64,000 nt of DNA from an uncultured candidatus Porisulfidus sp. (GCA_965214545.1 OZ243950.1:1478440-1542439); one strand, 5' to 3'; positions 24,101 to 40,416 are shown, numbered from the stretch's first letter. Made by a program: numbers and translations. The notes: a model not told the origin generated them from the letters alone.

Positions 24101-24464
24101 ATTGCAGTCCGGTCAGGAACAGCACGACGAACAGGAAGCCGACGGACCCGGTGGCAAAACCGATCCAGGTCAGCGCCATCAGGGCGCATTCCGCCAGCTT
24201 GATGTGCTGGATCAGGCGGTGCCGCGGGAAATGATCCGCCAGTTTTCCGCCCAGGGCGGAGAACAGCAGGAACGGAAGCAGGAAGATCCCGGCGGAGGCG
24301 GCGACCAGCTCTTCACTGCCGAACCCGGCCAGTTCGGTGATGCGGTAGGTGATCAGGACGACCAGCGCGTTGCGGAAGACGTTGTCGTTGTAGGCCCCGG
24401 TCAGTTGGGTGAAGAAAAAGGGCCCCAGCCGCCGTGTCAGTAACAGACGGAAGGTCGAAGGCAT
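21126..24464 (-). CDS. aas: Fused lysophospholipid transporter LplT (MFS) + 2-acylglycerophosphoethanolamine acyltransferase / acyl-ACP synthetase Aas
   Basis: 1112 aa. N-terminal ~400 aa MFS (12 TM), central PlsC-type acyltransferase region, C-terminal AMP-binding domain (TSGSEGEPKGVVLSHRNL, GYGVTET). In E. coli these are separate adjacent genes, lplT-aas. Confidence 0.7.
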   Translation of the reverse strand: MPSTFRLLLTRRLGPFFFTQLTGAYNDNVFRNALVVLITYRITELAGFGSEELVAASAGIFLLPFLLFSALGGKLADHFPRHRLIQHIKLAECALMALTWIGFATGSVGFLFVVLFLTGLQSALFGPVKYAILPSLLPRAELLAGNAWVAVGTFISILAGSLTGTLVMGIPDAALWVPGILVISAVAGTLASHRIPAQAPVSTGLQLSFEPFSETAQIVREGLAQPRLTWLMLAISWFWMIGVGMLIQLPLFVRDVLAGNAQALAGALAIFTVGIGLGALLCNRWLGGTARATLAPISAAVLGIGFVLLGLVPPAEVPLRGFAALLEDPQAVTALGLLLALAVAGGFYVTPLYTLVQQRAPEDRRARTIACNNILNSIFMALASVTSIVIFQSGGTIVTVWGAMAATAFAAALLLLHFTQGSFRHVLLWPVASVALTTETPPPGSLVFVRRGSAWIAWALAATIPGKLEIHVAPALRRRASLRLLACWVRLKPLDPAALGDAGPGHPNEPARTVLVLPPDGAEGEAALLGLMQAARGRSGRPVAVASVSDPELYMPRPYPRIRVGFESCPLPPRAADEPETLRSDALKIYDLLCELEYRMHCQECTTLQSLYDAARRFGGGRPILADLERTLTYRQLLQAIHAVAQLLGRALPKGQDTVGILLPNAAATPITFFALHTLRRIPVMLNYTAGPANVASACRTAGLTHIVTSRRFIEKAELGGLTDALAEHRTLLWLEDLRPQLTLGMKLKAAWRAQRPPPAGDPSDPAVVLFTSGSEGEPKGVVLSHRNLQRNRCQVRAVLSLSPRDHLLLCLPTFHSFALGVGLLLPLMAGLRCTLYPSPLHYKQIPELIRKHGMTVFFSTDTFLNGYGQAARPDDLRSLRLVVAGAEPLKPGTRKFWQERFGLTVHEGYGVTETSPAVSVNTVPCNRPGSVGRLMPGIEARFEALDAPGETDGPAARGRLFLRGPNVMSGYWMPGEDRLLTPPEDGWHDTGDVAEFDADGFLSLRGRAKRFAKIGGEMVSLAYVEQQVSEVWPESRHIVCAIAHPTRGEQLVLITEHPEPDRGRLRQALGERGVGELARPRLILPVEALPLLGSGKPDLRRAQELAGSVLH

Positions 24465-26838: not shown

Positions 26839-27030
26839 ATGGATCAAACCTATCGAGACGCGGTCAGCCGCATGGAAGAACTGGGGGTCGACCCCGAGTA
26901 CATTCTCGGCTGGCAGGGTGGTTATCTAGGCCACCCGACACGAGAGGAGCAACGCCTTACCGAAGCCTATCAGGCCGGATTTGAGGATGGCCAGGAAAAG
27001 GAAACCGGTAATTTCGAGAACTGGGCGTAA
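26839..27030 (+). CDS. Small hypothetical protein (63 aa), first gene of the low-GC islet
   Basis: MDQTYRDAVSRMEELGVDPEYILGWQGGYLGHPTREEQRLTEAYQAGFEDGQEKETGNFENWA. GC ~50% against a ~67% background. No recognisable domain. Confidence 0.4.
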   Translation: MDQTYRDAVSRMEELGVDPEYILGWQGGYLGHPTREEQRLTEAYQAGFEDGQEKETGNFENWA

Positions 27031-27056
27031 GCGAAATCCATCATGATCTCGCTGAT

Positions 27057-27389
27057 GTGGTTGTACAGCCAAAAAGCAAAATCAATGGCATCCGTTTAAA
27101 AGAGATGATTCTTTCCACTTTGGATTTGTATCTAAGTGAAGATCGGGTTTCAGCAGAGGTTCTCCAGGGTGAAGCCAAGCGGAGACATGGCGACTATTAC
27201 CAAAGTTTCGGGTACTACCTACGCTTGTACCGTCAACGTGCTGACCTGACGCAGGTAGAACCGGCCGATCGAACGGGTATCCTCCAGCATCATTTGTCTG
27301 AAATGGAGAACAACAAGCGGGTGCTGGGGAAATCGAACGCCATGAAACTGGCGAAAATACTGGATTGTGACTATCGAAGGCTCTTGTAG
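27057..27389 (+). CDS. XRE-family HTH transcriptional regulator with unknown N-terminal extension
   Basis: C-terminal Cro/C1-type HTH: LRLYRQRADLTQVEPADRTGILQHHLSEMENNKRVLGKSNAMKLAKILDCDYRRLL. Confidence 0.6.
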   Translation: MVVQPKSKINGIRLKEMILSTLDLYLSEDRVSAEVLQGEAKRRHGDYYQSFGYYLRLYRQRADLTQVEPADRTGILQHHLSEMENNKRVLGKSNAMKLAKILDCDYRRLL

Positions 27390-27513
27390 GTCTGGTGAGA
27401 AATCCGGGCTAGAGGTGATCCCAGATAGCGACGGGGCAGAATCCTATAACTGGGTGGAAGCCCGGCATTCAGGGATATGGCGGTAATCCGGTCTCGTGCG
27501 TAGACCGGGTGAT

Positions 27514-28077
27514 TCATGTATAGGTTGTGCCGAAGCCCGGTGCCGCAGCTAAAACTTCTTCAACCTGACCGGTGGCCAGTTTCTCCAGAGGTGTCACGGT
27601 TTCTTCAGCAAATGGCCATTCCTGGGAAAGGAAAGCCCAAGCGAGTACAGGGTCATCAATGATTCCCAAGACTTGGGCAAGGCCCGGAACAACCTTGCCC
27701 GGGGCCACAATCTGCGCGGCAGGAATGTTCAGGCCGCGCTTGGTAGATTTCCAGGCAAGCAGCGTTTTTTTTGAGACCCAATCATAGATAGTTGGGCGTG
27801 ATACCTGTAGACGCGCCGCAGCTTTAGAGACTCCGATAGTTTCTTGATCTGCCGGTCGACGGATGACGAACGGCTTGAGTGCTGTGACGATTTCATCGAA
27901 AGCATCATTGGCACGCGCCTCGGATTTGGCAGCGGCTGCCTCCAAAGCAACGGCAACAGCCATAATCGCATCCCGAGGGTGCTGGTGAAGAAAGTTTTCG
28001 GCACTACGTGACAGGACCGGAATTTCGTCTTTAAGAAAACCTGTGACCTGTTTTTCCAGTGCGGTCGCTTCGTCCAT
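27514..28077 (-). CDS. Hypothetical protein with central AlpA/excisionase-type HTH (HTH_17)
   Basis: IGVSKAAARLQVSRPTIYDWVSKKTLLAWKSTKRGLNIPAAQI resembles MerR/AlpA-like HTH. Flanking domains are unknown. Confidence 0.5.
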   Translation of the reverse strand: MDEATALEKQVTGFLKDEIPVLSRSAENFLHQHPRDAIMAVAVALEAAAAKSEARANDAFDEIVTALKPFVIRRPADQETIGVSKAAARLQVSRPTIYDWVSKKTLLAWKSTKRGLNIPAAQIVAPGKVVPGLAQVLGIIDDPVLAWAFLSQEWPFAEETVTPLEKLATGQVEEVLAAAPGFGTTYT

Positions 28078-28130
28078 GGGCTAAATTCCATCATTGCTCC
28101 ACGGGCAAATCATATAAAAAATTCCAATAT

Positions 28131-28157
28131 ATGTAAAGTTTGTAAATAATGTAAACC
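28131..28157 (+). promoter_or_regulatory. Triple direct repeat TGTAAA in the divergent promoter region of the islet
   Basis: aTGTAAAgttTGTAAAtaaTGTAAAcc, between the divergent starts at 28077 and 28260. TATAAT at 28201-28206 and an AGGAG RBS precede ATG 28260. Confidence 0.35.
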
Positions 28158-28259
28158 TATTCATGGGCACTTGGGCTTTCGGCGCACAGGAAAAATGTCT
28201 ATAATGATGCGCCCAAATTAAGCTACAGACTTATTTGGATTTTTATAGGAGAAAAACAA

Positions 28260-28697
28260 ATGGGTGTACAGGCGTTTGATGTGGCTTCTTATATCCTTAA
28301 AAAGTGTGGCACGATGCCCGCCATGAAACTACATAAACTCGTCTATTATTCTCAGGCATGGTCCCTTGTGTGGGATGACAAGCCTATTTTCCATGATCGG
28401 ATTGAAGCATGGGCAAATGGCCCAGTTATTAGGAATTTGTATAACGAACACAAGGGAAGGTTTCGGGTTGGTAGCATAAAGAGCGGCGATTGGAAATTGC
28501 TGGACGTTGATCAACGTGAAACTATTGATGCTGTTCTTGACCATTATGGGGATAAATCTTCACAGTGGCTCAGTGACTTGACCCACATGGAGGCTCCGTG
28601 GAAAGAAGCACGGGCAAAGGCGGGGCTTGCCAGTGGGCAACGTGGAAGCGCATGTATTACCCATGCGTCTATGGCTGAATATTACTCTGGTTTATGA
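28260..28697 (+). CDS. Panacea-domain (DUF4065, SocA/GepA-like) protein, putative antitoxin
   Basis: MKLHKLVYYSQAWSLVWDDKPIFHDRIEAWANGPVIRNLY matches the DUF4065/Panacea core. Confidence 0.6.
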   Translation: MGVQAFDVASYILKKCGTMPAMKLHKLVYYSQAWSLVWDDKPIFHDRIEAWANGPVIRNLYNEHKGRFRVGSIKSGDWKLLDVDQRETIDAVLDHYGDKSSQWLSDLTHMEAPWKEARAKAGLASGQRGSACITHASMAEYYSGL

Positions 28698-29143
28698 AAA
28701 GAAACTTGGGTAAAAAACCAACCACAAAATTATCCAAATCAGTCGAAAGCCCCCGCCCCACCAAAAAAGCGAAGAGTGGCGAGGGTCCGAGCAAAGATGA
28801 TCATTTGTCTTGGAGATTCAGTTCGTGTGATAGGAATGGCCCTTGGCCTTGGCCGAACTTATCAGATCCAGAAAAATACCGGCGTGTGATAGAGAAACTA
28901 TCTGGTCTTGAGCAAATGAATCAAGAGCAAATTAAAAACACAGGGAGTCATCCCATTGCTGTTGATGCTCTTGTGAAAGATGCCAGAGACCGTCTCCAAC
29001 AGCTCCATAAAGATGATGTTGATGAGCTTTACTCGTTCCGCATTTCTGGCAGAGAAAGAGTATGGTGCATAAGGAAACAGAATGTTATGGAGGTTTTGTG
29101 GTGGGATCCCAATCACGAGGTATGCCCCTCGACACCTAAGTGA
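28694..29143 (+). CDS. Putative toxin partner of the Panacea protein: Lys-rich N-terminus and a C-terminal RelE/ParE-like motif (tentative)
   Basis: Overlaps the upstream stop (ATGA). The C-terminus ELYSFRISGRERVWCIRKQNVMEVLWWDPNHEV resembles the ...YRI.Y....V.ILRI.HR... toxin signature. No confident family assignment. Confidence 0.3.
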   Translation: MKRNLGKKPTTKLSKSVESPRPTKKAKSGEGPSKDDHLSWRFSSCDRNGPWPWPNLSDPEKYRRVIEKLSGLEQMNQEQIKNTGSHPIAVDALVKDARDRLQQLHKDDVDELYSFRISGRERVWCIRKQNVMEVLWWDPNHEVCPSTPK

Positions 29144-29151
29144 TATCCAAG

Positions 29152-29712
29152 TCACGCTCCGCCTGAAACCAGGCTGCGAAGGACCCGCCGCAGCGCCGTC
29201 GCAAACTTCGGCGCCTCGCGGTCGATGACGTAAGTGGCGATCCACTCCTGCTCCTTTTCCCCCATGCTGCCGGCCACCGCATCGCCGAGCTCCCGGCGCA
29301 GCGCGAACCCCGGGCCCTTTTCCTCGGACCATTGACCGCCCGCGTAGGTTTCAGTCTGCGCATTGAGTTGTTCGATAAAGCGGGCCGCATGCTCTCCCGG
29401 ACCGTCGCATTCCAGCCGGTTGTCCTGCATCAGCGCGGCCAGGTGCCGGGCCAGCGAGGAGATCAACGGGGCCCGGGCCTCATCGGGCAGTCGCGACTGG
29501 GTTTCACGGTCGGTCAGGTGCACGCCGAAGATTGCGAACTGCCCGATAACGTCCAGCCGCTGTGACCAGTCGGCCGTTTCAAACCCTTCGTTCTCGAGCG
29601 CCAGCAGGGCGTCGCCAGCGAGCCGCCAGATATTGACGGACAGGGCGCTGGCCGTCTGGTCCGCGCTGCGCGGCGTTTCGCGCTGGTTCCAGTGTCGGGA
29701 AAGGCGGGGCAT
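29152..29712 (-). CDS. Hypothetical protein (186 aa), divergent from the downstream operon
   Basis: Clean ORF with background GC and no recognisable motifs. Confidence 0.45.
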   Translation of the reverse strand: MPRLSRHWNQRETPRSADQTASALSVNIWRLAGDALLALENEGFETADWSQRLDVIGQFAIFGVHLTDRETQSRLPDEARAPLISSLARHLAALMQDNRLECDGPGEHAARFIEQLNAQTETYAGGQWSEEKGPGFALRRELGDAVAGSMGEKEQEWIATYVIDREAPKFATALRRVLRSLVSGGA

Positions 29713-29748: not shown

Positions 29749-29780
29749 TTGACGATTTCGCGTTTTTCGCCACTATAGTT
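29749..29780 (+). promoter_or_regulatory. Sigma70-like promoter for the operon starting at ~29802
   Basis: cTTGACGatttcgcgtttttcgccacTATAGTtagc: -35 TTGACG, ~17-bp spacer, -10 TATAGT. Confidence 0.4.
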
Positions 29781-29801: not shown

Positions 29802-30854
29802 TTGCCGAGACTGGAAATGCCGCCGATCGAACCCTTGTGCCGGCGCGTCCAGACAAACTGCGACATCGCCGATGCCCGCCATGCGGGGGCCCTGACCCTA
29901 TGCGTATATCTTCTGAAGATGCGCGAATACTTCCGCTGGGAGATGGGCCTGGATTTCACCGCGCCCCTGCCGAACGAGGCGGTGGGCCGTTGGATCCAGG
30001 AACGGGAGGAACGCTGGGAGGAACTGGGCGAGGAATCGTACCGGCCGGTGTCCATCCAGGGGCGGGCCTACGATCCGTTCGACACCGAAGGCATCAACCG
30101 GGCGCTGTTGCCGGAAGGCTACGTGTACAGCGCGGGCCTCGGGCTGCACAAGGCGCCGCATTTTTTCCTGGGCCGGTTGCTGGGCGAGCAGGGCCGGGGC
30201 GATTACCGGATCTATGAGGCCCGGGAAGAATGTGCGCGGGATCTGGCGGCTCCGCCGGCGATGGCCCTGGGCCGGACCATTTTCGTGCGCCGGGAGTCCT
30301 TGCGCCGCATGCTGTGGGAGCGCCTGCAGGAGTGGCGCTGGAGCCGGCAGGACAATGCGCTGGGCGAGGCCCTGCGCTGCTATCCGTTCGACGACGACCT
30401 GGAATCGGCGCTGGATGCGATGACGGACTGCGAGGCGAAGACCGTGATCCTGCATGAAATCGGCGAGGTCGAGGTCGGCCGGGAGTTGGGCGAGGACTGG
30501 CACGACCTGCTGCACGCCCTGCCTCGCGGGGCGGCGGAACTCGGCCTGCGCGCGGTGCGCGACCACTGGGCCGATTGCCAGGTGACGCTGCCGGCCTTGC
30601 TGGAGGAGGGCAACCGGGCCGCGCTGCTGTTCTACCGGGCGGGCCTGACGGCGATGCGCCGGCAGTTGTTCCCGGACCTGGTGGAGGCCCTGGACCATTG
30701 GCGGGAGGCGCACGATGAACGCGGCCTGCTGCAGGCAGTCGACCGGGGCCGCGCCCACTGGGAGAAGACGGCCCGGCAGTTGCTGCGCGCCGGCAGCCGG
30801 GCCCGGACTCCGGCCCCCAAGCTGGCGACCTTGCTCGACGCGTCGATATTGTGA
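29802..30854 (+). CDS. Hypothetical protein (350 aa), first gene of a tightly coupled operon leading into fadE
   Basis: MPRLEMPPIEPLCRRVQTNCDIADARHAGALTLCVYLLKMREYFRWEMG.... No domain recognised. An alternative ATG is at 29817. Confidence 0.5.
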   Translation: MPRLEMPPIEPLCRRVQTNCDIADARHAGALTLCVYLLKMREYFRWEMGLDFTAPLPNEAVGRWIQEREERWEELGEESYRPVSIQGRAYDPFDTEGINRALLPEGYVYSAGLGLHKAPHFFLGRLLGEQGRGDYRIYEAREECARDLAAPPAMALGRTIFVRRESLRRMLWERLQEWRWSRQDNALGEALRCYPFDDDLESALDAMTDCEAKTVILHEIGEVEVGRELGEDWHDLLHALPRGAAELGLRAVRDHWADCQVTLPALLEEGNRAALLFYRAGLTAMRRQLFPDLVEALDHWREAHDERGLLQAVDRGRAHWEKTARQLLRAGSRARTPAPKLATLLDASIL

Positions 30855-31456
30855 GCGCCTCCCGGTCCGAACTGCGCGAGGTGCTTCCTGGCAGTTTCAT
30901 CTGGCAGCAGGACGGCGCCTTGGGGGCGGCCCAGTGCCAGGCCATCGTCGAGCGGTTCGAGGCGGATCCGGGAAAACGGCCCGGGCGCACCGGCGCTGAT
31001 GCCGGCGAGCGGCCCGAACTGAAACGTTCGACCGACCTGGCCCTGGCCGGGCCGCAGTGGCAGGATGTCGACCGCTGGCTGTTCACGTCCCTGTCTGCCG
31101 TGCTGCGCGAGTTGCAGCGGCACTACCCGTATTTTCGCGGACGGTTCAAGGACCAGGGCTATGCCGTGCAGCGCACCGACGCGGGCGAGTACTACCACTG
31201 GCACGTGGACGCGGACAGCCCGGACCTGGCCGATCGGCAACTGGTCGCGATCTGGTACCTCAACGACGTGGCGGGCCCGGGCGGTGAGACCGAGTTCCTG
31301 CACCAGGGCATCAAGATCCAGCCGGCGGCCGGGCGGCTGGTCCTGTTCCCGCCCTTCTGGACCCATCAGCACCGGGGCGTCACCCTGGCGCAGGGCGTCA
31401 AGTACCTGGCCACCACCTGGATTGTGTTTGCCGAGCGAGGGGACCATGCCCGTTAG
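30851..31456 (+). CDS. 2OG-Fe(II) oxygenase superfamily protein (prolyl-4-hydroxylase-like)
   Basis: GTG start overlaps the upstream TGA. HxD...H facial triad candidates YYHWHVDAD and FWTHQHRG, plus a downstream Arg. Confidence 0.55.
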   Translation: MSASRSELREVLPGSFIWQQDGALGAAQCQAIVERFEADPGKRPGRTGADAGERPELKRSTDLALAGPQWQDVDRWLFTSLSAVLRELQRHYPYFRGRFKDQGYAVQRTDAGEYYHWHVDADSPDLADRQLVAIWYLNDVAGPGGETEFLHQGIKIQPAAGRLVLFPPFWTHQHRGVTLAQGVKYLATTWIVFAERGDHAR

Positions 31457-31467
31457 AATGGCCGGGT

Positions 31468-32424
31468 ATGCGCTGGACTGCACCCTGGTTTCTCCCGGAC
31501 CCGTCGGTTTGGCGGCGGCTTTGGCAGAAAACGGTGGAATGGCTGGAACAGCGCGCCACCGCCTGGTTGCTGGTCGAAAAGAAGAGGGGCGCCGCCCTCT
31601 CACCGATCAACTTCGACCACCTCATGGCCGAGGCGCGCCTGGGCGATGTCCTGCTGGTCGAAGGGCGGACCCGGGTGGCGCGTGCGGTGCGGGCCATCAC
31701 ACAGAGCGTCTGGACGCATTCGGCCCTGGTCATCGGCAGCCTGGACAGGGTTCGGGATCCGGCTCTGCGCGCGGTCGTGCGCAGCCAGCTCCGGGACGAC
31801 GAGTTGGGTGCACCGCTGATCGTGGAATCGGAACTCGGCCGCGGCACCATCGTCTCTTCCCTCCTGCGCTACCGCGACCACCATCTCCGCTTGTGCCGGC
31901 CGCAAGGCTTGAGCCATACCGACGCCCGGCGCGTCACGACCTACGCGCTGTTGCACCTGGGGGCGGGCTACAACGTCCGGCAGATCCTGGACCTTGCGCG
32001 CTTCCTGGTGCCGTGGTGGGCGGTGGTCCCGCGGCGCTGGCACTCATCCCTGTTCGAACACAACACCCAGGACCCGACCCGACAGATCTGTTCAACCCTG
32101 ATCGCCCGGGCGTTCAACCGGGTCCGTTTCCCGGTCGTCCCGCTGGTCGTCGAGAGCGGGGGGCGAATCCGCATGGTGCAGCGCAACCCGCGCTTGGTCA
32201 CGCCGCGCGATTTCGATCATTCGCCGTATTTCTCGGTGATCAAGTACCCGCTGCTCGGCCGGGACGACATCGGGTTCTACCAGACGCTGCCGTGGTCGGA
32301 GGAAGGTCTCGCCGAGGAGGCCCGGGACATGCTTGAGGATTGCAGCGTCATGCACGTGAACCTGGACTCCCCGGGATCCGGAGCCCCGCCGGAGCCGTCC
32401 GCGGACGGCCGCAAGGAGGCCTGA
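31468..32424 (+). CDS. YiiX/YebB-like permuted papain-fold (C92 family) protein, putative amidase or thioesterase
   Basis: His-before-Cys permuted order: SVWTHSALVIG ... ICSTLIARAF. Confidence 0.4.
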   Translation: MRWTAPWFLPDPSVWRRLWQKTVEWLEQRATAWLLVEKKRGAALSPINFDHLMAEARLGDVLLVEGRTRVARAVRAITQSVWTHSALVIGSLDRVRDPALRAVVRSQLRDDELGAPLIVESELGRGTIVSSLLRYRDHHLRLCRPQGLSHTDARRVTTYALLHLGAGYNVRQILDLARFLVPWWAVVPRRWHSSLFEHNTQDPTRQICSTLIARAFNRVRFPVVPLVVESGGRIRMVQRNPRLVTPRDFDHSPYFSVIKYPLLGRDDIGFYQTLPWSEEGLAEEARDMLEDCSVMHVNLDSPGSGAPPEPSADGRKEA

Positions 32425-34914
32425 ATGGGCGGGTTCCTGGGCGCGGTGTTCTTCCAGCTGGCCGGGCTCGTCCTGCTGATCGTCGGCTGGGCCCTGATTA
32501 CGGTCCATGCCACGAATTTCTGGACCGGGCTGGCCGCGGCGGGATTGGCGCTGCTGCTGTGGATGCTGACGTTCGTGCCGCCGCTGTGGTGGGCGATCCT
32601 GGTGGCGGCGGCATGGGCGGTGCCGGTGCTGATGTGGACCCATCGGGGCTGGCGGCAAGCCGTCATCGTGCAGCCGGCCTGGCAGTGGCTGCGCCGGGCT
32701 CTGCCGCCCCTGTCCGACACCGAGCGCGACGCCCTGCAGGCCGGCGTCGCAGGCTGGGAGGAGGCACTGTTCACCGGTGCGCCCGACTGGGAGAAGGTCC
32801 TGCAAGGCGAGCCGGTAAAACTGACCAAGAAAGAACAGGCGTTTCTCGACGGCCCGGTGGAGCGGCTGTGCGGGTTGCTGGACGATTGGCGCATCACGAC
32901 GGCCGACTACGACCTCTCGCCGGAAGCCTGGCAGTTGATCCGCGAGGAGAAGATGTTCGGCCTGGTGCTGCCGGAGCAGTACGGGGGCCTGGGGTTTTCG
33001 GCCCTTGCGCATTCCGAGGTGGTCATGAAAATCGCCAGCCGCAGCGTCGCGGCCGCCGTGACGGTCATGGTCCCCAATTCGCTGGGGCCGGGCAAGTTGC
33101 TGCTGCGCTACGGCACGCCGGAGCAGAAGGACCATTACCTTCCCCGGCTGGCCCGGGGGGCGGAGACGCCCTGCTTCGGCCTGACCGGTCCGCGGGCCGG
33201 GTCGGACGCGGCTTCCTTGCAGGATACCGGCGTGGTTTGCCAGTGGGAGGAGAATGGCGAGAATGTCCTGGGCATTCGCCTCAACTGGGAGAAACGCTAC
33301 ATCACCCTGGCGCCGGTCGCGACATTGATCGGCCTGGCGTTCCGCCTGCACGACCCGGACGGCCTGCTGGGCGGCCCGCCGGACCGGGGGATCACGCTGG
33401 CGCTGGTTCCGGCGGACGCACCGGGCGTCGAGATCGGGCGGCGGCACCTGCCCCTGCAGGTCCCGTTCATGAACGGGCCGATCCTTGGGCACGACGTGCT
33501 CATCCCGTTGGACCAGGTCATCGGCGGGCGGGAGGGAGTCGGGCGTGGCTGGCAGATGCTGATGGAATGCCTGGGCGAAGGCCGGGGCATTTCGCTCCCC
33601 GCCCTGGCCGTGTCGGCCGGCAAGCTCGCGACCCGCAATGCGGGCGCTTACGCGGCCGTGCGCCACCAGTTCTCGCAGCCGATTGCGCGTTTTGAGGGGG
33701 TCGGGGAGGCGCTCGGGAGAATCGGCGGCAACACGTACCTGATGAACGCCGTGCGGACCGAGATCGCGCACCAGGAGGACCGTGGGGAATGTTCCTCGGT
33801 CGCCTCGGCCATCGCCAAGCAGCAACTGACCGAGCGCATGCGCCAGGTCGTCAGCGATGCCATGGACATCCATGCCGGTGCCGCCATCTGCGTGGGCCCG
33901 CGCAACCAGATGGCCCGCCTCTACCAGGCGGTGCCGATCGCGATCACGGTGGAAGGCGCCAACCTGCTGACGCGCAACATGATTATTTTCGGGCAGGGCC
34001 TGATGCGTTGCCATCCCTATCTGCTGCAGGAGATGGAGTGCCTGCAGATGGAAGAGGGGGACGAGACACTGGAGGAGTTCGACCGGGTCCTGCGCCGGCA
34101 TGCGGGCACCACCCTGCGCAGTGCCGCCCGCGCCTTCGTGCTGGGGCTCAGCGGCGGGCGTTATTCCCCGCCGGACGCGCCCTTGGCCCCGTACCGGTTC
34201 CTGGCCTGGCAGAGCGCGTGCTTTGCCTGGGTGGTCGATGTGCTGCTGCTGCGCTACGGAGGCACGCTCAAGCGCCGCGAACGCCTGTCGGCGCGCCTGG
34301 CAGACATGTTTTCCGCGCAGTACATGGCGGTGTGCGTGATTCGCCGTTTCCGGGCCGGGGGCAGCCGCCCGGAAGAAGGGTTGCTGCGTGACTGGGCGCT
34401 GATGGAATGCCGGCAGCATTTCCTGACGGCGCTGGACGCATTGATTCGCAACCTCGACGAGGTCTGGCTGCGCGCCCTGCTGCGCGCCTCTACCCTTCCG
34501 CTGGGGCGGGCGGGTCAGTTCCGGAGCGACCGGGCCGACCGGGCGGTCGCCGACCTGGTTTCGGCACCGGCCCCGGAACGCGATCGTCTGTGCGGGGGAA
34601 TTTTCCTCGGCGGCGGGCCGAACGACCCCTCGATCCGGCTGGAGCAGGGCCTGATCGAGGCGAAGGAAGTGGAACCGATCCGCAGCGCGCTGCGGCGTGC
34701 GATGAAGGAAGGGCGGGTGGCCGCCGGCGACCATGGGGCCGACCTGGGCCAGGCGATCAAAGCCGGGGTCGTGACGATGGAACAGGCAGAACAGTTGCGC
34801 GCGGTCGAACGCCGGGTGGATGAGATCATCGCGGTGGATGCGTTCGCGCCGGGGGATTGGGCGCGGGCCGAGCCGGTGCTGCCGAAGGCGCCGCGGGACG
34901 GCACCGCGCGATGA
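32425..34914 (+). CDS. fadE: Acyl-CoA dehydrogenase, FadE type (N-terminal TM + ACAD domains)
   Basis: 829 aa. N-terminal TM helices, then ACAD N/M/C domains, about the same size as E. coli FadE (814 aa). Confidence 0.8.
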   Translation: MGGFLGAVFFQLAGLVLLIVGWALITVHATNFWTGLAAAGLALLLWMLTFVPPLWWAILVAAAWAVPVLMWTHRGWRQAVIVQPAWQWLRRALPPLSDTERDALQAGVAGWEEALFTGAPDWEKVLQGEPVKLTKKEQAFLDGPVERLCGLLDDWRITTADYDLSPEAWQLIREEKMFGLVLPEQYGGLGFSALAHSEVVMKIASRSVAAAVTVMVPNSLGPGKLLLRYGTPEQKDHYLPRLARGAETPCFGLTGPRAGSDAASLQDTGVVCQWEENGENVLGIRLNWEKRYITLAPVATLIGLAFRLHDPDGLLGGPPDRGITLALVPADAPGVEIGRRHLPLQVPFMNGPILGHDVLIPLDQVIGGREGVGRGWQMLMECLGEGRGISLPALAVSAGKLATRNAGAYAAVRHQFSQPIARFEGVGEALGRIGGNTYLMNAVRTEIAHQEDRGECSSVASAIAKQQLTERMRQVVSDAMDIHAGAAICVGPRNQMARLYQAVPIAITVEGANLLTRNMIIFGQGLMRCHPYLLQEMECLQMEEGDETLEEFDRVLRRHAGTTLRSAARAFVLGLSGGRYSPPDAPLAPYRFLAWQSACFAWVVDVLLLRYGGTLKRRERLSARLADMFSAQYMAVCVIRRFRAGGSRPEEGLLRDWALMECRQHFLTALDALIRNLDEVWLRALLRASTLPLGRAGQFRSDRADRAVADLVSAPAPERDRLCGGIFLGGGPNDPSIRLEQGLIEAKEVEPIRSALRRAMKEGRVAAGDHGADLGQAIKAGVVTMEQAEQLRAVERRVDEIIAVDAFAPGDWARAEPVLPKAPRDGTAR

Positions 34915-36245
34915 ACGTCCCGGATTCGCCGCACCCTGCGGCGACACCGCCGGGCAAGGGGCGCACGGTCTACGTCGTGGATGGCCGGCGCACGCCGATT
35001 CTCAAGGCGTCGGGTTCCCCGGGGCCGTTTTCCGCCAGCGACCTGGCAGTGGCGTGCAGCCGAGACCTGGTCTTGCGCCATCCGGCGGCGGGCGCAGGCA
35101 TACAGGAGTTGGTCTGGGGCTGCGTGATGCCCAGCGAATCCGAGGCCAACATCTCCCGGATCATCGGCCTTCGCCTGGGGCTGGCCCCGGGAGTGCCGGC
35201 GCATACCGTCCAGCGCAACTGTGCGTCCGGGATGCAGGCGCTGGATGCGGCGGCACAGCGCATCGCGCAAGGCGCTTCGGACCTGGTCCTGGCCGGGGGG
35301 GCCGAGGCGATGAGCCGCGCCCCTGTGCTGCTCGGACCGGAAGCCGTATCCTGGCTTGGCCGGCTCAGCCGGGCGAGAGGGCGTTGGGCTCGGGCGCGCG
35401 CGGTGCTGGAGTTCCGGCCCCGCATGCTGAACCTGGTCAGCGCCCTGCGCTGCGGTTTGACCGACCCGGTCGTGGGTCTCAACATGGGCCAGACCGCGGA
35501 AGAACTGGCGCACCGCTTCCGGATTCCCCGGCGGGCCATGGACGCCTTTGCACTGGAAAGCCACGAGTTGGCCGCGCGGGCGCAGGATGCGGGAGTGTTC
35601 GATGACGAGATCACCCCCCTGTACGACGGGGCGACCGGCGAAGCCTATGTGCAGGACACGGGCGTACGCCGCGACTCTTCCCTGGACCAGCTGGGCCGGC
35701 TGCGACCGGTATTCGACTCTCCGAATGGCAACGTGACGGCCGGAAACAGTGCGCAGATCAGTGATGGCGCGGCCGCGTTGCTGCTGGCCTCGGAAGACGC
35801 GATCGAGACCTACCGGCTCCCGGTGCTTGGCATTCTGCGCCACGTCAGCTGGGCCGCACTGGACCCGGTCATGATGGGGCTGGGGCCGGTGCACGCGATG
35901 CGGGACCTGTTCGACCAGGCCGGGGTGACGGTCGACGAGATCGACTGCTTCGAGATCAACGAAGCCTTCGCGGTACAGGTCCTGGCGTGCCTGGCGGCCT
36001 GGCAGGACGAGTCCTACATGCGCGACGCGCTGGGCCGGACCGACTGCCTCGCGCCGATCGACAAGGAGCGGCTCAATCCGCATGGCGGGGCGGTCGCGAT
36101 GGGCCATCCGGTGGGAATGACGGGCGCGCGGATCGTGCTGCACGTCCTCAAGCAGCTGCAACGCATGAAGGGACGGTACGGCGTCGCAAGCCTGTGCATC
36201 GGCGGCGGGCAGGGCGGCGCTGCGTTGCTGGAGCGCGCCTCGTGA
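34908..36245 (+). CDS. fadA: 3-ketoacyl-CoA thiolase (acetyl-CoA C-acyltransferase)
   Basis: Start MNVPDSPHP...RTVYVVDGRRTP. Thiolase active-site Cys (NCASGMQA), His (NPHGGAVAMGHPVG) and C-terminal CIGGGQG. Confidence 0.8.
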   Translation, partial: AMNVPDSPHPAATPPGKGRTVYVVDGRRTPILKASGSPGPFSASDLAVACSRDLVLRHPAAGAGIQELVWGCVMPSESEANISRIIGLRLGLAPGVPAHTVQRNCASGMQALDAAAQRIAQGASDLVLAGGAEAMSRAPVLLGPEAVSWLGRLSRARGRWARARAVLEFRPRMLNLVSALRCGLTDPVVGLNMGQTAEELAHRFRIPRRAMDAFALESHELAARAQDAGVFDDEITPLYDGATGEAYVQDTGVRRDSSLDQLGRLRPVFDSPNGNVTAGNSAQISDGAAALLLASEDAIETYRLPVLGILRHVSWAALDPVMMGLGPVHAMRDLFDQAGVTVDEIDCFEINEAFAVQVLACLAAWQDESYMRDALGRTDCLAPIDKERLNPHGGAVAMGHPVGMTGARIVLHVLKQLQRMKGRYGVASLCIGGGQGGAALLERAS

Positions 36246-38266
36246 ACGCATGGCGGCATTGGCGGCTCGTGCCGGGGGAGGGCGGCAACCTGGAGTTGTT
36301 CCTGGCGGTGGCCGACCGTTCGGTGAATGTGCTGCACCGCGCGGTGCTGGACGAGTTGGAAGAAGTGCTGGAACATCTGCATACCGAGTCCCCTCCGGGC
36401 GTTATTCTCGGCTCGGATCCCGGGTGCGCCTTTGCGATGGGTGCGGACGTGACGGAGTTTGCGACACTGGAAGACCGGGCCCAGGCGCTGGCGATGTTGC
36501 ACCGGGGGCAGAAGCTGTTCGAGGACTGGGCGAGCCTCGACTGCCCGACCGTCGCGGCGATCCGCGGCCACTGCCTGGGGGGTGGGCTGGAGCTGGCCCT
36601 GGCCTGCGACTACCGGGTCGCGGAGAGCGGCCCCGAGGTCCGGATCGGGCTGCCCGAGGTGCGCCTGGGCATTCATCCGGGTTACGGGGGATCCGTGCGC
36701 TTGCCGGCCCGGGTCGACGGCATGGAAGCGCTGCGGATGATGATCACCGGAAAGGCCGTGTCCGGCGCAGAGGCCCTGCGGCTGAACTTGGTGGATGCGG
36801 TGGTGCCGCGACGGCAGCTGTATCCGGCCGCACGCGCCATACTCCGGAACCGTCCGGGCGGGTCTTCCCGGTCATGGCGGGACTGGCTGCTGCGCCTGGC
36901 GATGGTTCGCGAAGCCGTGGCCTGGGTCTACGCCCGCGGCATGCGGGCGACTGTGCCCGAGGATCATTACCCGGCTCCCTACCGGCTGCTCAAGCACTGG
37001 CAGGGCCTGGGCCGGGATTCCGCGGAGGCGTTCGAGTCCGAGGCGCAATCGGTGGCGGACCTGTTCGAGACGCCGCAGGCGCGCCAGTTGACACGGATCT
37101 TCCTGCTTCGCCAGGAACTCAATGGCCAGGGCCCGGACCGCAAGGGCATCTCCCGCGTGCATGTCGTCGGCGCCGGGGTGATGGGGGGAGATATTGCCAC
37201 CTGGTGCGCCCTGAACGGCTTGCGGGTGACGCTTGAAGACATGGGGCCGGAACGGATCGCCCCGGCCATCCGGCGGGCCCGCCAACTGCTGGATCGACGA
37301 CCGGAAGACGCGCGGGCCGTGCTGGATCGCCTGATTCCGGACCCGGAAGGGCACGGGGCCGGGGAGGCGGACCTCGTGATCGAGGCGATCTTCGAGAACC
37401 TTGAAGCCAAGCAGGAACTGTACCGCCGGTTGCAATCCCGGATGCGCCCGGATGCCGTGCTTGCGAGCAACACGTCGAGCCTGCCTATCGAACAACTGGC
37501 GCAGACCCTGGACGAGCCTTCCCGGCTGGTCGGCATTCACTTCTTCAACCCGGTCTCCAAGATGCCGCTGGTGGAGGTGATCACCCATGACTCCGGGCAA
37601 CAGTCCCGGATCGACCAGGCGGCGGGGTTTGTCCGGCGCATCCGGCGGGTGCCGCTGGTCGTGAAATCCTCGCCCGGGTTCCTGGTCAACCGGGTGCTCA
37701 TGCCGTATCTCCTGGAGGCGGTCCGCCTGCGAGAAGAGGGGGTGCCGGTGGCGGCCATTGATCGTGCGGCAACGGCGTTCGGCATGCCCATGGGTCCGCT
37801 GAAGCTGGCGGACACGGTAGGGCTCGATATCTGCCTTGCGGCGGGTTCGATCCTGGCTGAGGCCCAGGGAGGGGAGATGCCGAAGACCTTGGCCGAAATG
37901 GTCGAGGCGGGTCACTTGGGGCGCAAGACCGGGCGGGGCTTCTACCGTTGGAAGAGCGGGAAGGCGGAACGCCTGCGTGGCAGGAAGCCGTCGCGGGATT
38001 GCGAGGACCGGCTCATTCTCAGCATGGTGCGCGAAGCCGTGCATTGCTTGCATGAAGGCTTGGTGGAACGCGCGGATTGGATCGATGCGGGACTGGTCCT
38101 GGGGACCGGCTTCGCGCCGTTCACCGGGGGGCCACTCGCCCTGGTGCGCCGGAGGGGGACAGAAGCGGTCTGCCGGCGCCTGGAAGAACTTGAGGCTCGC
38201 CACGGACCGAGATTCGCCCCCGGGCCGGGGTGGAATTCGGAATTCCTGCATAAAACCGTTTCATGA
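36242..38266 (+). CDS. fadB: Fatty acid oxidation complex alpha subunit (enoyl-CoA hydratase + 3-hydroxyacyl-CoA dehydrogenase), FadB/FadJ
   Basis: GTG start overlaps the fadA TGA. Crotonase fold, then NAD-binding VVGAGVMGGDIA and 3HCDH domains. Confidence 0.8.
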   Translation: MNAWRHWRLVPGEGGNLELFLAVADRSVNVLHRAVLDELEEVLEHLHTESPPGVILGSDPGCAFAMGADVTEFATLEDRAQALAMLHRGQKLFEDWASLDCPTVAAIRGHCLGGGLELALACDYRVAESGPEVRIGLPEVRLGIHPGYGGSVRLPARVDGMEALRMMITGKAVSGAEALRLNLVDAVVPRRQLYPAARAILRNRPGGSSRSWRDWLLRLAMVREAVAWVYARGMRATVPEDHYPAPYRLLKHWQGLGRDSAEAFESEAQSVADLFETPQARQLTRIFLLRQELNGQGPDRKGISRVHVVGAGVMGGDIATWCALNGLRVTLEDMGPERIAPAIRRARQLLDRRPEDARAVLDRLIPDPEGHGAGEADLVIEAIFENLEAKQELYRRLQSRMRPDAVLASNTSSLPIEQLAQTLDEPSRLVGIHFFNPVSKMPLVEVITHDSGQQSRIDQAAGFVRRIRRVPLVVKSSPGFLVNRVLMPYLLEAVRLREEGVPVAAIDRAATAFGMPMGPLKLADTVGLDICLAAGSILAEAQGGEMPKTLAEMVEAGHLGRKTGRGFYRWKSGKAERLRGRKPSRDCEDRLILSMVREAVHCLHEGLVERADWIDAGLVLGTGFAPFTGGPLALVRRRGTEAVCRRLEELEARHGPRFAPGPGWNSEFLHKTVS

Positions 38267-39951
38267 ACGGCCTGGGCCCGGTGTTGCACGGGAACACCCT
38301 GGGGCAACTGTTCGAGGCGCGGGTCGCGGCCACGCCGGACGCGGTGGCCTACGTCGAGTACAGCCCGGTGCTCGGCAAATGGTTCCGGCACAGCTGGGCA
38401 TCGATGCATGAACAGGCCGGCCGGGCCCAGTCCCTGCTTGAGGCGCTCGGCCTCGAAGCGGGCGACCGAATCGGCATCATGGCGCACGGCGGCGCCTACT
38501 GGGTGACTCTGGACCTGGCGGCGGCCGGCCTCGGGATCGTGACCGTGCCGCTGTACCACCGGGACCGAGGCGGCAATGTGGCCTATGTGGCCGGCCGCAG
38601 CCGTCTGCGCGCGTTGTTCATCGGCGGGCCTGCGCAGTGGCAGGAACTCGCCGGCGAGCGCGCCCGCATGCCCGGGGTCGAACATCTGTTCAGCGCGATC
38701 CGGATCCCGGACACGGAAGTCCGGCCGTTTTTCCTGGAGCTTGCCGACGCCGCCGCGTCGCGGTACCGGGTGGTGCAGAACGACCCCGAGTCCATCGCGA
38801 CGATTGTATTTACCTCGGGGACCACGAGCCGGCCCAAGGGCGTGCTGCTGACGCATGCCAACATCCTGAGCAACGCCCGCGCTGCGACGGCTGCGGTCCC
38901 GATTGGGCCGGCAGACCGGCTGCTGTCTTTTCTCCCGCTGTCGCACATGTTCGAGCGGACGGTCGGGTACTACTCGCCCCTGTTGTGTGGTGCCACGGTG
39001 GCGTTCGCCCGTTCGGTCGCCAGTCTGCGGGAGGACCTTCGCCTGCAACCGCCCACCATCCTGGTGTCGGTGCCGCGCGTCTACGAAAAAATCTATCGTG
39101 CCATGACTTCGAGGCGTCCGTTGAACAGCCCGGTCGGGCGGCTGCTGGTGTCGCTGGGCCGGCGAGCCGGCCGGGCCGGGCCTTCGTCCTGGGGGTGGGT
39201 CCTGGGCGGGCTGCCGCGGCAGTTGATCGGCAAGAAAGTCCTCCAGGGCCTGGGCGGGCACCTGCGGCTTGCCATTACCGGCGGCGCGGCGATGAATGCG
39301 TCGGTGGCGGACTTCTTTGCGGGAATGGGCCTGAAAGTGCTGCAGGGCTACGGCCTGACGGAGACCGCCCCGGTGGTCAGCGTCAACCGGGAGGACGACA
39401 TCCGGCGCGGTTCGGTCGGCCCACCGATCGAGGGGGTGGAGGTGAAGCTGGCCGACGATCAGGAATTGCTGGTGAGAGGGGAGGGGGTCATGCAGGGCTA
39501 CCTGGACAATCCCAAGGCGACGGAAGCGGCCATCGACCGCGAGGGGTGGTTTCATACGGGCGACCTGGCGCGCATTGAAGACGGCCACATCCATATCGTC
39601 GGGCGGGCCAAGGAGATCATTGTGCTGTCCAACGGCGAGAAGGTCCCCCCGGAGGACCTGGAAAGCGCCTTGTGCAATGACCCCCGGATCAGCCAGGCTT
39701 GGGTCACCGGAGAGGGGCGGCCCTTCCTGTCGGCGGTCGTGGTGGTCGATGAACCGGAGGACGAGGCTCAATTACTGGATGCCGTGGACGACCTGCTGCG
39801 CGACTTCCCGGGCTACGCGCGGATCCGGCGCCTGCACGTCGAGACCGAACCGTGGGGAGAGCGGGACGGCTTGATGACCGCGACGCTGAAGTTGCGGCGC
39901 CGGGCTCTTCATGAGAAGTACGACGCGATCCTCGCTGCGTTCTACGAGTGA
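38263..39951 (+). CDS. Long-chain fatty acid--CoA ligase (FadD-like AMP-binding enzyme)
   Basis: TSGTTSRPKGVLLTH (AMP-binding box), GYGLTETAP, C-terminal GWFHTGDLA. Confidence 0.75.
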   Translation: MNGLGPVLHGNTLGQLFEARVAATPDAVAYVEYSPVLGKWFRHSWASMHEQAGRAQSLLEALGLEAGDRIGIMAHGGAYWVTLDLAAAGLGIVTVPLYHRDRGGNVAYVAGRSRLRALFIGGPAQWQELAGERARMPGVEHLFSAIRIPDTEVRPFFLELADAAASRYRVVQNDPESIATIVFTSGTTSRPKGVLLTHANILSNARAATAAVPIGPADRLLSFLPLSHMFERTVGYYSPLLCGATVAFARSVASLREDLRLQPPTILVSVPRVYEKIYRAMTSRRPLNSPVGRLLVSLGRRAGRAGPSSWGWVLGGLPRQLIGKKVLQGLGGHLRLAITGGAAMNASVADFFAGMGLKVLQGYGLTETAPVVSVNREDDIRRGSVGPPIEGVEVKLADDQELLVRGEGVMQGYLDNPKATEAAIDREGWFHTGDLARIEDGHIHIVGRAKEIIVLSNGEKVPPEDLESALCNDPRISQAWVTGEGRPFLSAVVVVDEPEDEAQLLDAVDDLLRDFPGYARIRRLHVETEPWGERDGLMTATLKLRRRALHEKYDAILAAFYE

Positions 39952-40083
39952 GCGCGACGGAGATAGGGACCCATTCTCAAATTAGGACAAGTCAACTTTC
40001 CTTATCTGGGAAAATTATAAAATACCCTTATATTTCATATAAATATATCTGCAAAAAATCCTGAAAAGGTGGAAATCCTGACG

Positions 40084-40416
40084 TTAAGGCGGGGTTCCGC
40101 GTTCAATCTGGGTCTGCGTCATGTCGCCGCTGGTGTCGATGATGACTTCCCGGATGTCCGGTATCCGTGCCACGATGTAGGCGGCCATCATCGTGGCCAG
40201 TTCCTGGTTGTGGTTTTCCATCGCCGTCAGCAGCCGGTCGGCGACGATCTGGCAGCGCTGATGGGAATCCGGGCGGTCGACCCAGGTCCGGGACATCTGC
40301 CAGCCCCGGTCCATGTCGGCGTCCATGCGGGCGAACATGTCGGCGGCCTCCCCGGGCATTCCGTCCGGAATTCGGATCGGGTGGGACTGTTCGTTGATGG
40401 TGATCTTCAGGATCAT
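40084..40416 (-). CDS. Hypothetical small acidic protein
   Basis: MILKITINEQSHPIRIPDGMPGEAADMFARMDADMDRGW.... No confident family. Lies next to an AT-rich intergenic region. Confidence 0.4.
   Translation of the reverse strand: MILKITINEQSHPIRIPDGMPGEAADMFARMDADMDRGWQMSRTWVDRPDSHQRCQIVADRLLTAMENHNQELATMMAAYIVARIPDIREVIIDTSGDMTQTQIERGTPP

What the first reader, a model, noticed from the sequence alone, without database searches (positions are those of the whole stretch)
29802..34914. Uncharacterised trio (350-aa hypothetical, 2OG-Fe(II) oxygenase, YiiX-like permuted papain-fold protein) translationally coupled to fadE-fadA-fadB-fadD
All seven genes are on one strand with overlaps or 0-12 nt gaps (GTGA overlaps at 30851 and 36242; fadE starts 1 nt after the YiiX-like stop). 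That implies a single operon with a TTGACG/TATAGT promoter at ~29750. A dioxygenase plus a cysteine-hydrolase-fold enzyme wired into a beta-oxidation operon suggests an unrecognised lipid or acyl modification or catabolic step, for example hydroxylation and amide or ester cleavage of a substituted acyl substrate ahead of beta-oxidation. A divergent 186-aa hypothetical at 29152-29712 may be its regulator or partner.
Basis: partly seen in the sequence, partly recalled or inferred. Interest (0 to 1): 0.55.

Follow-up and report, generated by a model that had tools for sequence, protein, structure and literature searches.

The report
Two gene modules joined into one operon
The seven tightly packed genes are real, but they are two separately conserved units that abut only in a few lineages: a pair of unknown enzymes specific to sulfur-oxidising bacteria, and a fatty-acid breakdown set led by a lipid-hydrolase-like gene.

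Summary
The gene layout is confirmed. Seven same-strand genes run from 29817 to 39951 with -4, 11, 0, -4, -4 and -4 nt junctions and no terminator between them. The "trio" is not one unit.

(1) DUF6866 (Sfum_1244 family) and the P4H-like Fe(II)/2OG oxygenase are a fixed pair, adjacent in 69/72 species loci. A divergent 186-aa partner is adjacent in 69/77, and a convergent ~110-aa gene lies downstream. In most sulfur-oxidising Gammaproteobacteria this set has no fad genes (42/56). It sits just upstream of dsrAB (35/56).

(2) The YiiX-like permuted NlpC/P60 hydrolase belongs to the fad genes. In 54/56 environmental contigs it is followed by fadE, usually then thiolase, fadB/J and the acyl-CoA ligase. 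Only 1/45 of these contigs also carries DUF6866/2OG.

The two modules abut in two separate clades, Ca. Porisulfidus and a marine clade. In both, the fad block lies in the same variable slot. The seam between modules varies from 9 to 359 nt.

DUF6866 models confidently (pLDDT 93) as a DPP III/PolE-like fold with an invariant HExGE-x23-E motif.

Verdict: partly supported. A lipid-conjugate hydrolase feeding beta-oxidation is plausible. A role for the dioxygenase and DUF6866 in beta-oxidation is not supported.

The parts
29152..29712 (-). 186-aa conserved hypothetical, divergent partner of DUF6866 (module 1)
29749..29779 (+). promoter-like element TTGACG-19 nt-TATAGT upstream of DUF6866
   Evidence: Read from the sequence. 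Conserved in L001, L004, L005 and L008, and partly in L013. Not reported by the consensus scan because the spacer is 19 nt. Function untested.
29817..30854 (+). DUF6866 / Sfum_1244-family protein, 345 aa (module 1)
30851..31456 (+). P4H-like Fe(II)/2-oxoglutarate oxygenase, 201 aa (module 1)
   Evidence: PF13640 scores 51 bits against a cutoff of 27. Best PDB sequence hits are prolyl 4-hydroxylases 5c5t and 3itq, E about 1e-4. H118-x-D120, H174 and K184 are invariant in 61 orthologues. Overlaps DUF6866 by 4 nt in every Porisulfidus-clade locus. Adjacent to DUF6866 in 69/72 loci.
31468..32424 (+). YiiX/YebB-like permuted NlpC/P60 cysteine hydrolase, 318 aa; first gene of the fad module (module 2)
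   Evidence: PF05708 scores 24.2 bits, below the cutoff of 27. Most homologues carry PF05708 and NCBI names them YiiX/YebB-like N1pC/P60 cysteine hydrolases. The profile hits 3kw0 at E 3.6e-4 across the His and Cys segments. H84, E120 and C208 are invariant. Followed by fadE in 54/56 contigs.
32425..34914 (+). long FadE-type acyl-CoA dehydrogenase, 829 aa
   Evidence: NF007000 scores 963 bits against a cutoff of 600. ACDH_C, Acyl-CoA_dh_N, _M and _1 domains present. The Shine-Dalgarno AAGGAGG lies inside the end of the YiiX-like gene.
34911..36245 (+). 3-ketoacyl-CoA thiolase, 444 aa
   Evidence: Thiolase_N and Thiolase_C present. TIGR01930 scores 414 bits against a cutoff of 240. ATGA overlap with fadE.
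36242..38266 (+). FadB/FadJ-like enoyl-CoA hydratase/3-hydroxyacyl-CoA dehydrogenase, 674 aa
   Evidence: ECH_1, 3HCDH_N and 3HCDH domains. The FadJ and FadB models score below their equivalog cutoffs.
38263..39951 (+). long-chain acyl-CoA ligase (FadD-like), 562 aa
   Evidence: AMP-binding and AMP-binding_C_3 domains. Best NCBIfam hits are long-chain fatty-acid-CoA ligase models, below their cutoffs.
40084..40416 (-). ~110-aa conserved hypothetical, convergent end-piece of module 1
   Evidence: No family hit. Invariant MDxDMxxGWQMSRxW...QRCQIxAD core. Present downstream of DUF6866-2OG in 44/56 loci. The fad block lies between it and the 2OG or GNAT gene in every locus where both were recovered.

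Best explanation
The region is a composite of two independently conserved gene modules that have become abutted.

Module 1 is specific to sulfur-oxidising Gammaproteobacteria. It consists of a DUF6866 (Sfum_1244-family) protein translationally coupled to a P4H-like Fe(II)/2OG oxygenase, a divergent 186-aa helical partner, and a convergent ~110-aa protein. In most genomes this set, usually with a GNAT acetyltransferase, lies just upstream of the dsrAB sulfur-oxidation operon and has no link to fad genes.

Module 2 is a five-gene fatty-acid catabolic unit: YiiX-like permuted NlpC/P60 cysteine hydrolase, FadE, thiolase, FadB/J, acyl-CoA ligase. It travels as a block in many environmental bacteria.

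In the Ca. Porisulfidus lineage, and separately in one marine clade, module 2 occupies the variable slot between the convergent ends of module 1. In this window the seam is only 11 nt and has no terminator. So all seven genes are probably read from the promoter upstream of DUF6866 (inferred, not shown).

Inferred mechanism for module 2: the YiiX-like enzyme (Cys208/His84/Glu120) cleaves a fatty-acyl amide, ester or thioester conjugate. The released fatty acid is activated by the ligase and degraded by FadE, FadB/J and the thiolase.

Inferred for module 1: DUF6866 is a metal-dependent enzyme of the DPP III/PolE fold. It works with the 2OG oxygenase on a substrate unrelated to acyl-CoA oxidation.
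For: Layout and junctions.

Synteny of 80 species-level loci. The 2OG gene is adjacent in 69/72 and the 186-aa gene in 69/77. Among 56 loci with at least 6 kb downstream, fadE is present in only 14, against hyp116 in 44, GNAT in 34 and DsrA/B in 35.

Precomputed Pfam gene maps show DUF6866-2OG next to dsr genes.

The YiiX-fad block is conserved without module 1. FadE lies downstream in 54/56 contigs, and DUF6866/2OG lies upstream in 1/45.

The seam varies from 9 to 359 nt, or holds a GNAT gene plus 136-179 nt. Junctions within each module stay tight: -4 for DUF6866->2OG, and 0/-1/-4 for YiiX->fadE.

Fad-bearing loci form two separate clades in the DUF6866 tree.

The YiiX family has invariant His, Glu and Cys residues and matches 3kw0. 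E. coli YiiX crystallised with a fatty acid in its hydrophobic S1 pocket and was proposed to be a fatty-acyl amidase (PMC3142127).

The 2OG facial triad and the 2OG-binding lysine are invariant.

DUF6866 fold.
Against: Tight packing in this genome, and the recurrence of the same juxtaposition in two separated clades, could reflect a functional link rather than a permissive insertion slot.

No transcript data were available, so co-transcription is inferred.

The substrate of the YiiX-like enzyme is unknown. One Porisulfidus relative (L009) keeps the fad genes without it, so it is dispensable there.

The 80 species loci are the closest relatives among at least 583 hits, so the frequencies may not hold for the whole family.

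Confidence: 0.65

Rival explanations
1. DUF6866, the dioxygenase and the YiiX-like hydrolase act together as a pre-processing pathway: hydroxylation, then amide or ester cleavage of a substituted acyl substrate. The product is fed into beta-oxidation.
For: All seven genes are packed with -4 to 11 nt junctions and no terminator. The same order, DUF6866-2OG-(GNAT)-YiiX-fadE-thiolase-fadB/J-ligase, recurs in two clades that are not sisters in the DUF6866 tree.
Against: 42 of 56 species loci carry DUF6866-2OG with no fad genes nearby. 44 of 45 YiiX-fad contigs have no DUF6866/2OG upstream. The 2OG|YiiX junction is the one loose joint, at 9-359 nt or with an intervening GNAT gene. In fad-less genomes the same slot holds DsrC or DsrL instead.
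Confidence: 0.12
2. Module 1 (the 186-aa protein, DUF6866, the 2OG oxygenase and the ~110-aa protein) is an oxygen-dependent accessory set of the reverse-Dsr sulfur-oxidation pathway. It might modify or mature a Dsr component, or sense O2. In this genome it is simply a neighbour of the fad genes.
For: The order hyp186 | DUF6866-2OG-GNAT-[DsrC, DsrL]-hyp116 | PKHD | DsrC-Cas6-family-TauD | DsrAB is conserved across many lineages. DsrA/B lies within 10 kb in 35/56 loci. All 80 fetched loci come from Gammaproteobacteria or unclassified Pseudomonadota MAGs, and those with finer labels carry names of sulfur-oxidising groups such as Thiogranum, Thiohalobacter, Thiohalocapsa and Porisulfidus.
Against: In this window no dsr, GNAT, PKHD or TauD gene lies within 64 kb, so the pair persists without dsr adjacency. 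Long-range synteny among related genomes can be inherited without any functional coupling. DUF6866 does not match any named Dsr model in NCBIfam.
Confidence: 0.3
3. The YiiX-like protein is not a lipid hydrolase for beta-oxidation. It is a cell-wall or protein-directed peptidase, or a regulator, that is merely syntenic with fadE.
For: The window protein scores below the Pfam cutoff for Peptidase_C92 (24.2 against 27). L009 lacks it while keeping the fad genes. In Inmirania it is not followed by fad genes; the only acyl-CoA dehydrogenase gene in that locus lies about 6.6 kb upstream, behind a mercury-resistance cluster. An aminotransferase class V gene precedes it in 21/51 contigs.
Against: Same-strand adjacency to fadE holds in 54/56 contigs at only 42-53% identity. 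Junctions to fadE are 0 to -4 nt in the Porisulfidus clade. The catalytic residues are invariant. The family's solved member binds a fatty acid in a narrow hydrophobic pocket judged unsuitable for peptides (PMC3142127).
Confidence: 0.15

Closest known systems
Bacterial beta-oxidation gene sets (fadE, fadBA/fadIJ, fadD of E. coli and relatives)
   Same: All four activities are encoded: a long FadE-type acyl-CoA dehydrogenase, a thiolase, a bifunctional hydratase/dehydrogenase and an acyl-CoA ligase.
   Different: Here all four lie in one overlapping gene string led by a YiiX-like hydrolase gene. From my own knowledge, the E. coli genes are scattered, and I know of no description of a YiiX-like gene in a fad operon. 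The FadB/J and FadD equivalog cutoffs are not reached.
YaeF/YiiX permuted NlpC/P60 enzymes (Peptidase_C92; PDB 2if6 YiiX, 3kw0 BcPPNE)
   Same: Permuted order with His before Cys. His, Glu and Cys are invariant. The profile matches 3kw0. The family is linked to fatty-acyl ligands (PMC3142127). A search hit also reports a two-component lipoprotein N-acyl transferase system in S. aureus (PMC7387801; title and abstract only, not read).
   Different: The chain is about 90-130 residues longer than the 214-residue 3kw0 chain. It has an extra N-terminal segment and an invariant C-terminal block, RNxRLxTPRDFDxSPYFxxIKYP...LPW. The window protein is under the Pfam threshold. No member of this subfamily has been assayed.
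DUF6866 / NCBIfam NF045620 'Sfum_1244 family protein'
   Same: Full-length match far above cutoff.
   Different: This is a catalogued family with no known function. No paper in the held library mentions it.
Dipeptidyl-peptidase III (M49) and DUF6421/PolE Fe/pterin-dependent oxidase
   Different: The second His of both motifs is a Glu in DUF6866. There is no sequence-level similarity and no Foldseek match. The protein is far shorter than DPP III. The residue correspondence was not verified.
Prolyl 4-hydroxylase-like Fe(II)/2OG oxygenases (PBCV-1 P4H 5c5t, Bacillus anthracis P4H 3itq)
   Same: PF13640 domain. HxD...H triad and 2OG-binding Lys conserved.
   Different: Similarity is only about E 1e-4. 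No NCBIfam model matches. The substrate is unknown.

Membership tests
NCBIfam NF045620 Sfum_1244 family / Pfam DUF6866 | Full-length HMM score above the curated cutoff | tested here: met
   441 bits against a cutoff of 150. PF21739 scores 204 bits and PF21740 scores 209 bits, both against a cutoff of 27.
Fe(II)/2OG oxygenase, P4H-like (PF13640) | Domain score above cutoff | tested here: met
   51.4 bits against a cutoff of 27.
Fe(II)/2OG oxygenase, P4H-like (PF13640) | HxD...H iron triad and a basic residue for 2-oxoglutarate | tested here: met
   H118, D120, H174 and K184 are invariant in 61 orthologues. They align with P4H 5c5t.
Peptidase_C92 (YaeF/YiiX permuted NlpC/P60) | Pfam score above the gathering cutoff | tested here: not met
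   The window protein scores 24.2 bits against a cutoff of 27. Most homologues at 45-70% identity carry a precomputed PF05708 hit.
Peptidase_C92 (YaeF/YiiX permuted NlpC/P60) | Permuted catalytic residues: His, then an acidic residue, then Cys near the C-terminus | tested here: met
   H84, E120 and C208 are invariant in 20 sequences. The profile aligns the His and Cys segments to 3kw0 at E 3.6e-4. The triad definition comes from PMC3142127.
Peptidase_C92 (YaeF/YiiX permuted NlpC/P60) | Hydrophobic fatty-acyl binding pocket | not tested
   No structure model was made for this protein.
FadE-type acyl-CoA dehydrogenase | Subfamily HMM above cutoff and the bacterial ACDH_C domain | tested here: met
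   NF007000 scores 963 bits against a cutoff of 600. PF09317 at E 1e-72. The stricter E. coli FadE model scores 823 against a cutoff of 1300, so it is not met.
FadB/FadJ multifunctional enzyme | Equivalog HMM above cutoff | tested here: not met
   FadJ scores 486 against a cutoff of 869 and FadB scores 464 against 870. The domain architecture ECH_1 + 3HCDH_N + 3HCDH is present.
Single operon (seven genes) | Same strand, short or overlapping junctions, no internal terminator | tested here: met
Single operon (seven genes) | One transcript | not testable with these tools
   No expression data were available.
Functionally coupled gene set (trio + fad) | Co-conservation across genomes | tested here: not met
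   FadE lies near DUF6866-2OG in 14/56 loci. DUF6866/2OG lies near YiiX-fad in 1/45 contigs.
Functionally coupled gene set (YiiX-like + fad) | Co-conservation across genomes | tested here: met
   54/56 contigs.
DPP III (M49 metallopeptidase) | HExxGH and EExR(K)AE(D) zinc motifs | tested here: not met
   DUF6866 has HEIGE, with no second His, and ECARD lying N-terminal to it. The similarity is at fold level only.
DUF6421 / PolE Fe-pterin oxidases | HE/DxxH-x(21-23)-E motif | tested here: inconclusive
DsrS (last gene of the A. vinosum dsr operon) | Match to a DsrS model | tested here: inconclusive
   NF045620 is the only NCBIfam hit for DUF6866 at E <= 0.01. In L082 the gene is not positioned after dsrR on the same strand. 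I did not confirm that the library holds a DsrS model, and I did not compare against an A. vinosum DsrS sequence.

The most novel reading that the evidence does not exclude
Module 1 is an undescribed O2-dependent accessory system of reverse-Dsr sulfur oxidation. It comprises the 186-aa Cbp3-like protein, DUF6866, the P4H-like oxygenase and the ~110-aa protein. Elsewhere it is joined by GNAT, a PKHD-type oxygenase, a TauD-like oxygenase and extra DsrC copies. Within it, DUF6866 would be a new non-haem metal enzyme of the DPP III/PolE fold with an HExxE-x23-E site. A more speculative extension: the YiiX-like amidase splits fatty-acyl-aminosulfonate conjugates such as N-acyl taurines. The acyl chain would go to beta-oxidation and the sulfonate to the neighbouring TauD/Dsr route. 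That would explain why the fad block settled twice in this locus.
Probability: 0.2. Interest if true: 0.7.

Novelty: new variant of a known kind. Interest (0 to 1): 0.45.

Why it matters
Two things follow.

First, the YiiX/YaeF branch of the NlpC/P60 superfamily has a structure with a bound fatty acid but no assigned physiological role. A subfamily that sits in front of fadE in dozens of unrelated contigs gives it a concrete, testable role: releasing fatty acids from a lipid conjugate for beta-oxidation. It also adds a candidate entry step to bacterial lipid catabolism in marine and symbiotic bacteria.

Second, the analysis removes a misleading guilt-by-association inference. It relocates DUF6866 and its dioxygenase to the neighbourhood of the dsr sulfur-oxidation genes. 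There they form part of a strongly conserved, wholly uncharacterised gene set that includes three Fe(II)/2OG-type oxygenases.

Tried and rejected
(1) DUF6866 = DsrS. I considered this because the module lies next to dsrN-dsrR in L082. I dropped it. Only NF045620 matches in NCBIfam, the strand and position do not fit, and ORFs near DUF6866 in a Thiohalocapsa locus gave no DsrS hit. This is not a strict exclusion, because no DsrS sequence was compared.

(3) Sequence-profile searches of DUF6866, the 186-aa protein and the ~110-aa protein against PDB gave only chance-level hits.

(4) Foldseek of the DUF6866 model against PDB found nothing at E <= 0.001.

(5) Literature searches for DUF6866/Sfum_1244, for YiiX-type proteins with fad genes and for Porisulfidus found no description of either module. 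Two searches failed on term syntax.

It was redone with database homologues.

(7) A single ancestral fad insertion is not supported by the DUF6866 tree, which shows two clades. I could not separate two insertions from an ancestral presence followed by many losses.

Full report
OBSERVATION. The ORF list and direct reading of the junctions confirm seven same-strand genes:
- DUF6866, 29817-30854
- 2OG oxygenase, 30851-31456
- YiiX-like, 31468-32424
- FadE, 32425-34914
- thiolase, 34911-36245
- FadB/J-like, 36242-38266
- acyl-CoA ligase, 38263-39951

The junctions are -4, +11, 0, -4, -4 and -4 nt. An AAGGAGG Shine-Dalgarno sits inside the end of the YiiX-like gene, just before the fadE ATG.

The first gene is more likely 345 aa, starting at ATG 29817. 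The identical database protein is 345 aa. The proposed promoter is TTGACG (29749-29754) and TATAGT (29774-29779) with a 19-nt spacer. The consensus scan allows only 16-18 nt and so did not list it. That scan found no promoter-like site at the seam or ahead of fadE. Its only + strand match (33237-33264, 9 of 12) lies inside fadE. The terminator-like matches all lie inside coding sequence, and both counts are at the level of shuffled sequence. The promoter element is conserved in the closest relatives.

The nearest relatives are metagenome-assembled genomes named Candidatus Porisulfidus, a sponge-associated sulfur oxidiser.

IS THE TRIO ONE UNIT? I fetched 80 species-level genome loci around DUF6866 homologues and mapped the window's proteins onto them.
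- The 2OG oxygenase follows DUF6866 in 69/72 loci.
- The 186-aa gene is divergent and adjacent in 69/77 loci.
- Of the 56 loci with at least 6 kb downstream, 14 have fadE and 13 have the YiiX-like gene.
- Of the same 56, 44 have the ~110-aa gene (window 40084-40416), 34 a GNAT acetyltransferase, 38 DsrC, 38 a PKHD-type oxygenase, 37 a TauD-like gene and 35 DsrA/B.

The canonical order is hyp186(-) | DUF6866 2OG GNAT [DsrC, DsrL] hyp116(-) | PKHD | DsrC, Cas6-family, TauD (all -) | DsrA DsrB. Two precomputed Pfam gene maps confirm it.

I then ran the reverse test. Using an alignment of YiiX-like homologues, I fetched 80 metagenome contigs. Of the 56 with at least 1.5 kb downstream, 54 have fadE next on the same strand. 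Thiolase, fadB/J and often the ligase usually follow. Of the 45 with at least 3 kb upstream, only one has DUF6866/2OG.

So the YiiX-like gene belongs to the fad genes, and DUF6866 with the dioxygenase belongs to a different, dsr-neighbouring set.

THE SEAM. Within each module the junctions are tight everywhere. DUF6866->2OG is -4 in all Porisulfidus-clade loci and +2 to +5 in the other clade. YiiX->fadE is 0, -1, -4 or +5 nt in the Porisulfidus clade and 33-51 nt elsewhere.

The 2OG->YiiX junction behaves differently. It is 9-35 nt in the nearest relatives. It is 43, 90, 92 and 359 nt in L013, L012, L011 and L008. In L054 and L084-L086 it is interrupted by GNAT plus 136-179 nt. L009 has lost the YiiX-like gene altogether.

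In a neighbour-joining tree of DUF6866, the fad-bearing loci form two clades: Porisulfidus, and L054+L084+L085. Many fad-less lineages separate them. In both clades the block lies in the same slot, between the convergent ends of 2OG/GNAT and the ~110-aa gene. In other genomes that slot holds DsrC and DsrL. A permissive convergent intergenic slot is the simplest explanation. A functional reason for the recurrence is not excluded.

WHAT THE PROTEINS ARE.

The YiiX-like protein scores just under the Pfam cutoff (24.2 against 27). Its homologues carry PF05708 and the NCBI name 'YiiX/YebB-like N1pC/P60 family cysteine hydrolase'. A profile of 20 members matches the solved permuted enzyme 3kw0 over the His and Cys segments. 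H84, E120 and C208 are invariant. Xu et al. 2011 (PMC3142127) found a fatty acid in the hydrophobic S1 pocket of E. coli YiiX. [quoted passage not shown] Combined with the 54/56 linkage to fadE and the presence of an acyl-CoA ligase that needs free fatty acid, this leads me to infer that the enzyme releases fatty acids from an acyl conjugate ahead of beta-oxidation. This step is inference.

The dioxygenase is a P4H-like PF13640 enzyme. Its HxD...H triad and Lys are invariant in 61 orthologues.

MECHANISM AND RIVALS. My best reading (confidence 0.65) is a composite operon. Two modules with separate histories and, probably, separate substrates are read together here because the seam has shrunk to 11 nt.

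It fails its own co-conservation test.

For module 1 alone, a role linked to the dsr system is plausible (0.3) on synteny. It is unproven, and in this window no dsr gene lies within 64 kb.

A speculative bridge, not tested: N-acyl-aminosulfonate lipids could be split by the YiiX-like enzyme, with the acyl chain going to beta-oxidation and the sulfonate to TauD and Dsr.

NOVELTY. The beta-oxidation genes, the 2OG fold, the YiiX family and the DUF6866 family are all catalogued. Three things appear to be undescribed in the library searched: the near-obligate placement of a distinct, longer YiiX-like subfamily in front of fadE; the assignment of DUF6866 to the DPP III/PolE fold; and its fixed place in a conserved gene set upstream of dsrAB.

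I rate the finding a new variant of a known kind, with moderate interest (0.45).

Noticed in passing
window 27000-29150: A low-GC island (44-52% GC against about 68% around it) carries an HTH_3 protein, an HTH_17-like protein, a SocA/Panacea antitoxin-domain protein (28260-28697) and an overlapping 149-aa ORF with no family. In relative L001 the 107-aa gene and the 186-aa gene that flank this island are only about 460 nt apart. So this looks like an inserted toxin-antitoxin-type element.
   Followed up: partly
L081 11048-20633; L082 11001-21056; same order in about 35 loci of L014-L080: A strongly conserved, uncharacterised gene set lies upstream of dsrAB in sulfur-oxidising Gammaproteobacteria: GNAT, extra DsrC copies, a PKHD/YbiX-type oxygenase, a TauD-like oxygenase and a protein matching Pfam Cas6 (PF09559, E 8e-61). 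With the P4H-like enzyme that makes three Fe(II)/2OG-type oxygenases beside an anaerobic-type sulfite reductase operon.
   Followed up: partly
L086-L165 (e.g. L127 3016-4275), L083 6788-7921: A class-V aminotransferase gene lies directly upstream of the YiiX-like gene on the same strand in 21 of 51 metagenome contigs and in Inmirania thermothiophila. A 4HBT thioesterase follows the ligase in about 10 contigs.
   Followed up: partly
L009 11604-11747: One Porisulfidus-clade genome has no YiiX-like gene. Its 2OG oxygenase is followed after 142 nt by fadE.
   Followed up: no
window 39952-40083: A 132-nt AT-rich spacer separates the convergent ligase and ~110-aa genes. It contains a strong promoter-like match on the minus strand (TTTATA-18-TATAAT, 40043-40014) that points into the end of the ligase gene. 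No terminator-like hairpin was found in the spacer.
   Followed up: no
window 21126-24464 (-): A 1112-aa ORF has an AMP-binding-type segment 30% identical to the FadD-like ligase. The size suggests an Aas-type acyltransferase/acyl-ACP synthetase, but no family search was run. It would be a second lipid-handling gene 5 kb upstream of the locus.
   Followed up: no
window 49515-50048 and 50379-50813 (+): Two neighbouring ORFs of 177 and 144 aa have nearly identical N-termini (MIMTEA[H/R]R[T/I][14 protein letters not shown]...). They lie in a lower-GC stretch and look like a local tandem duplication.
   Followed up: no
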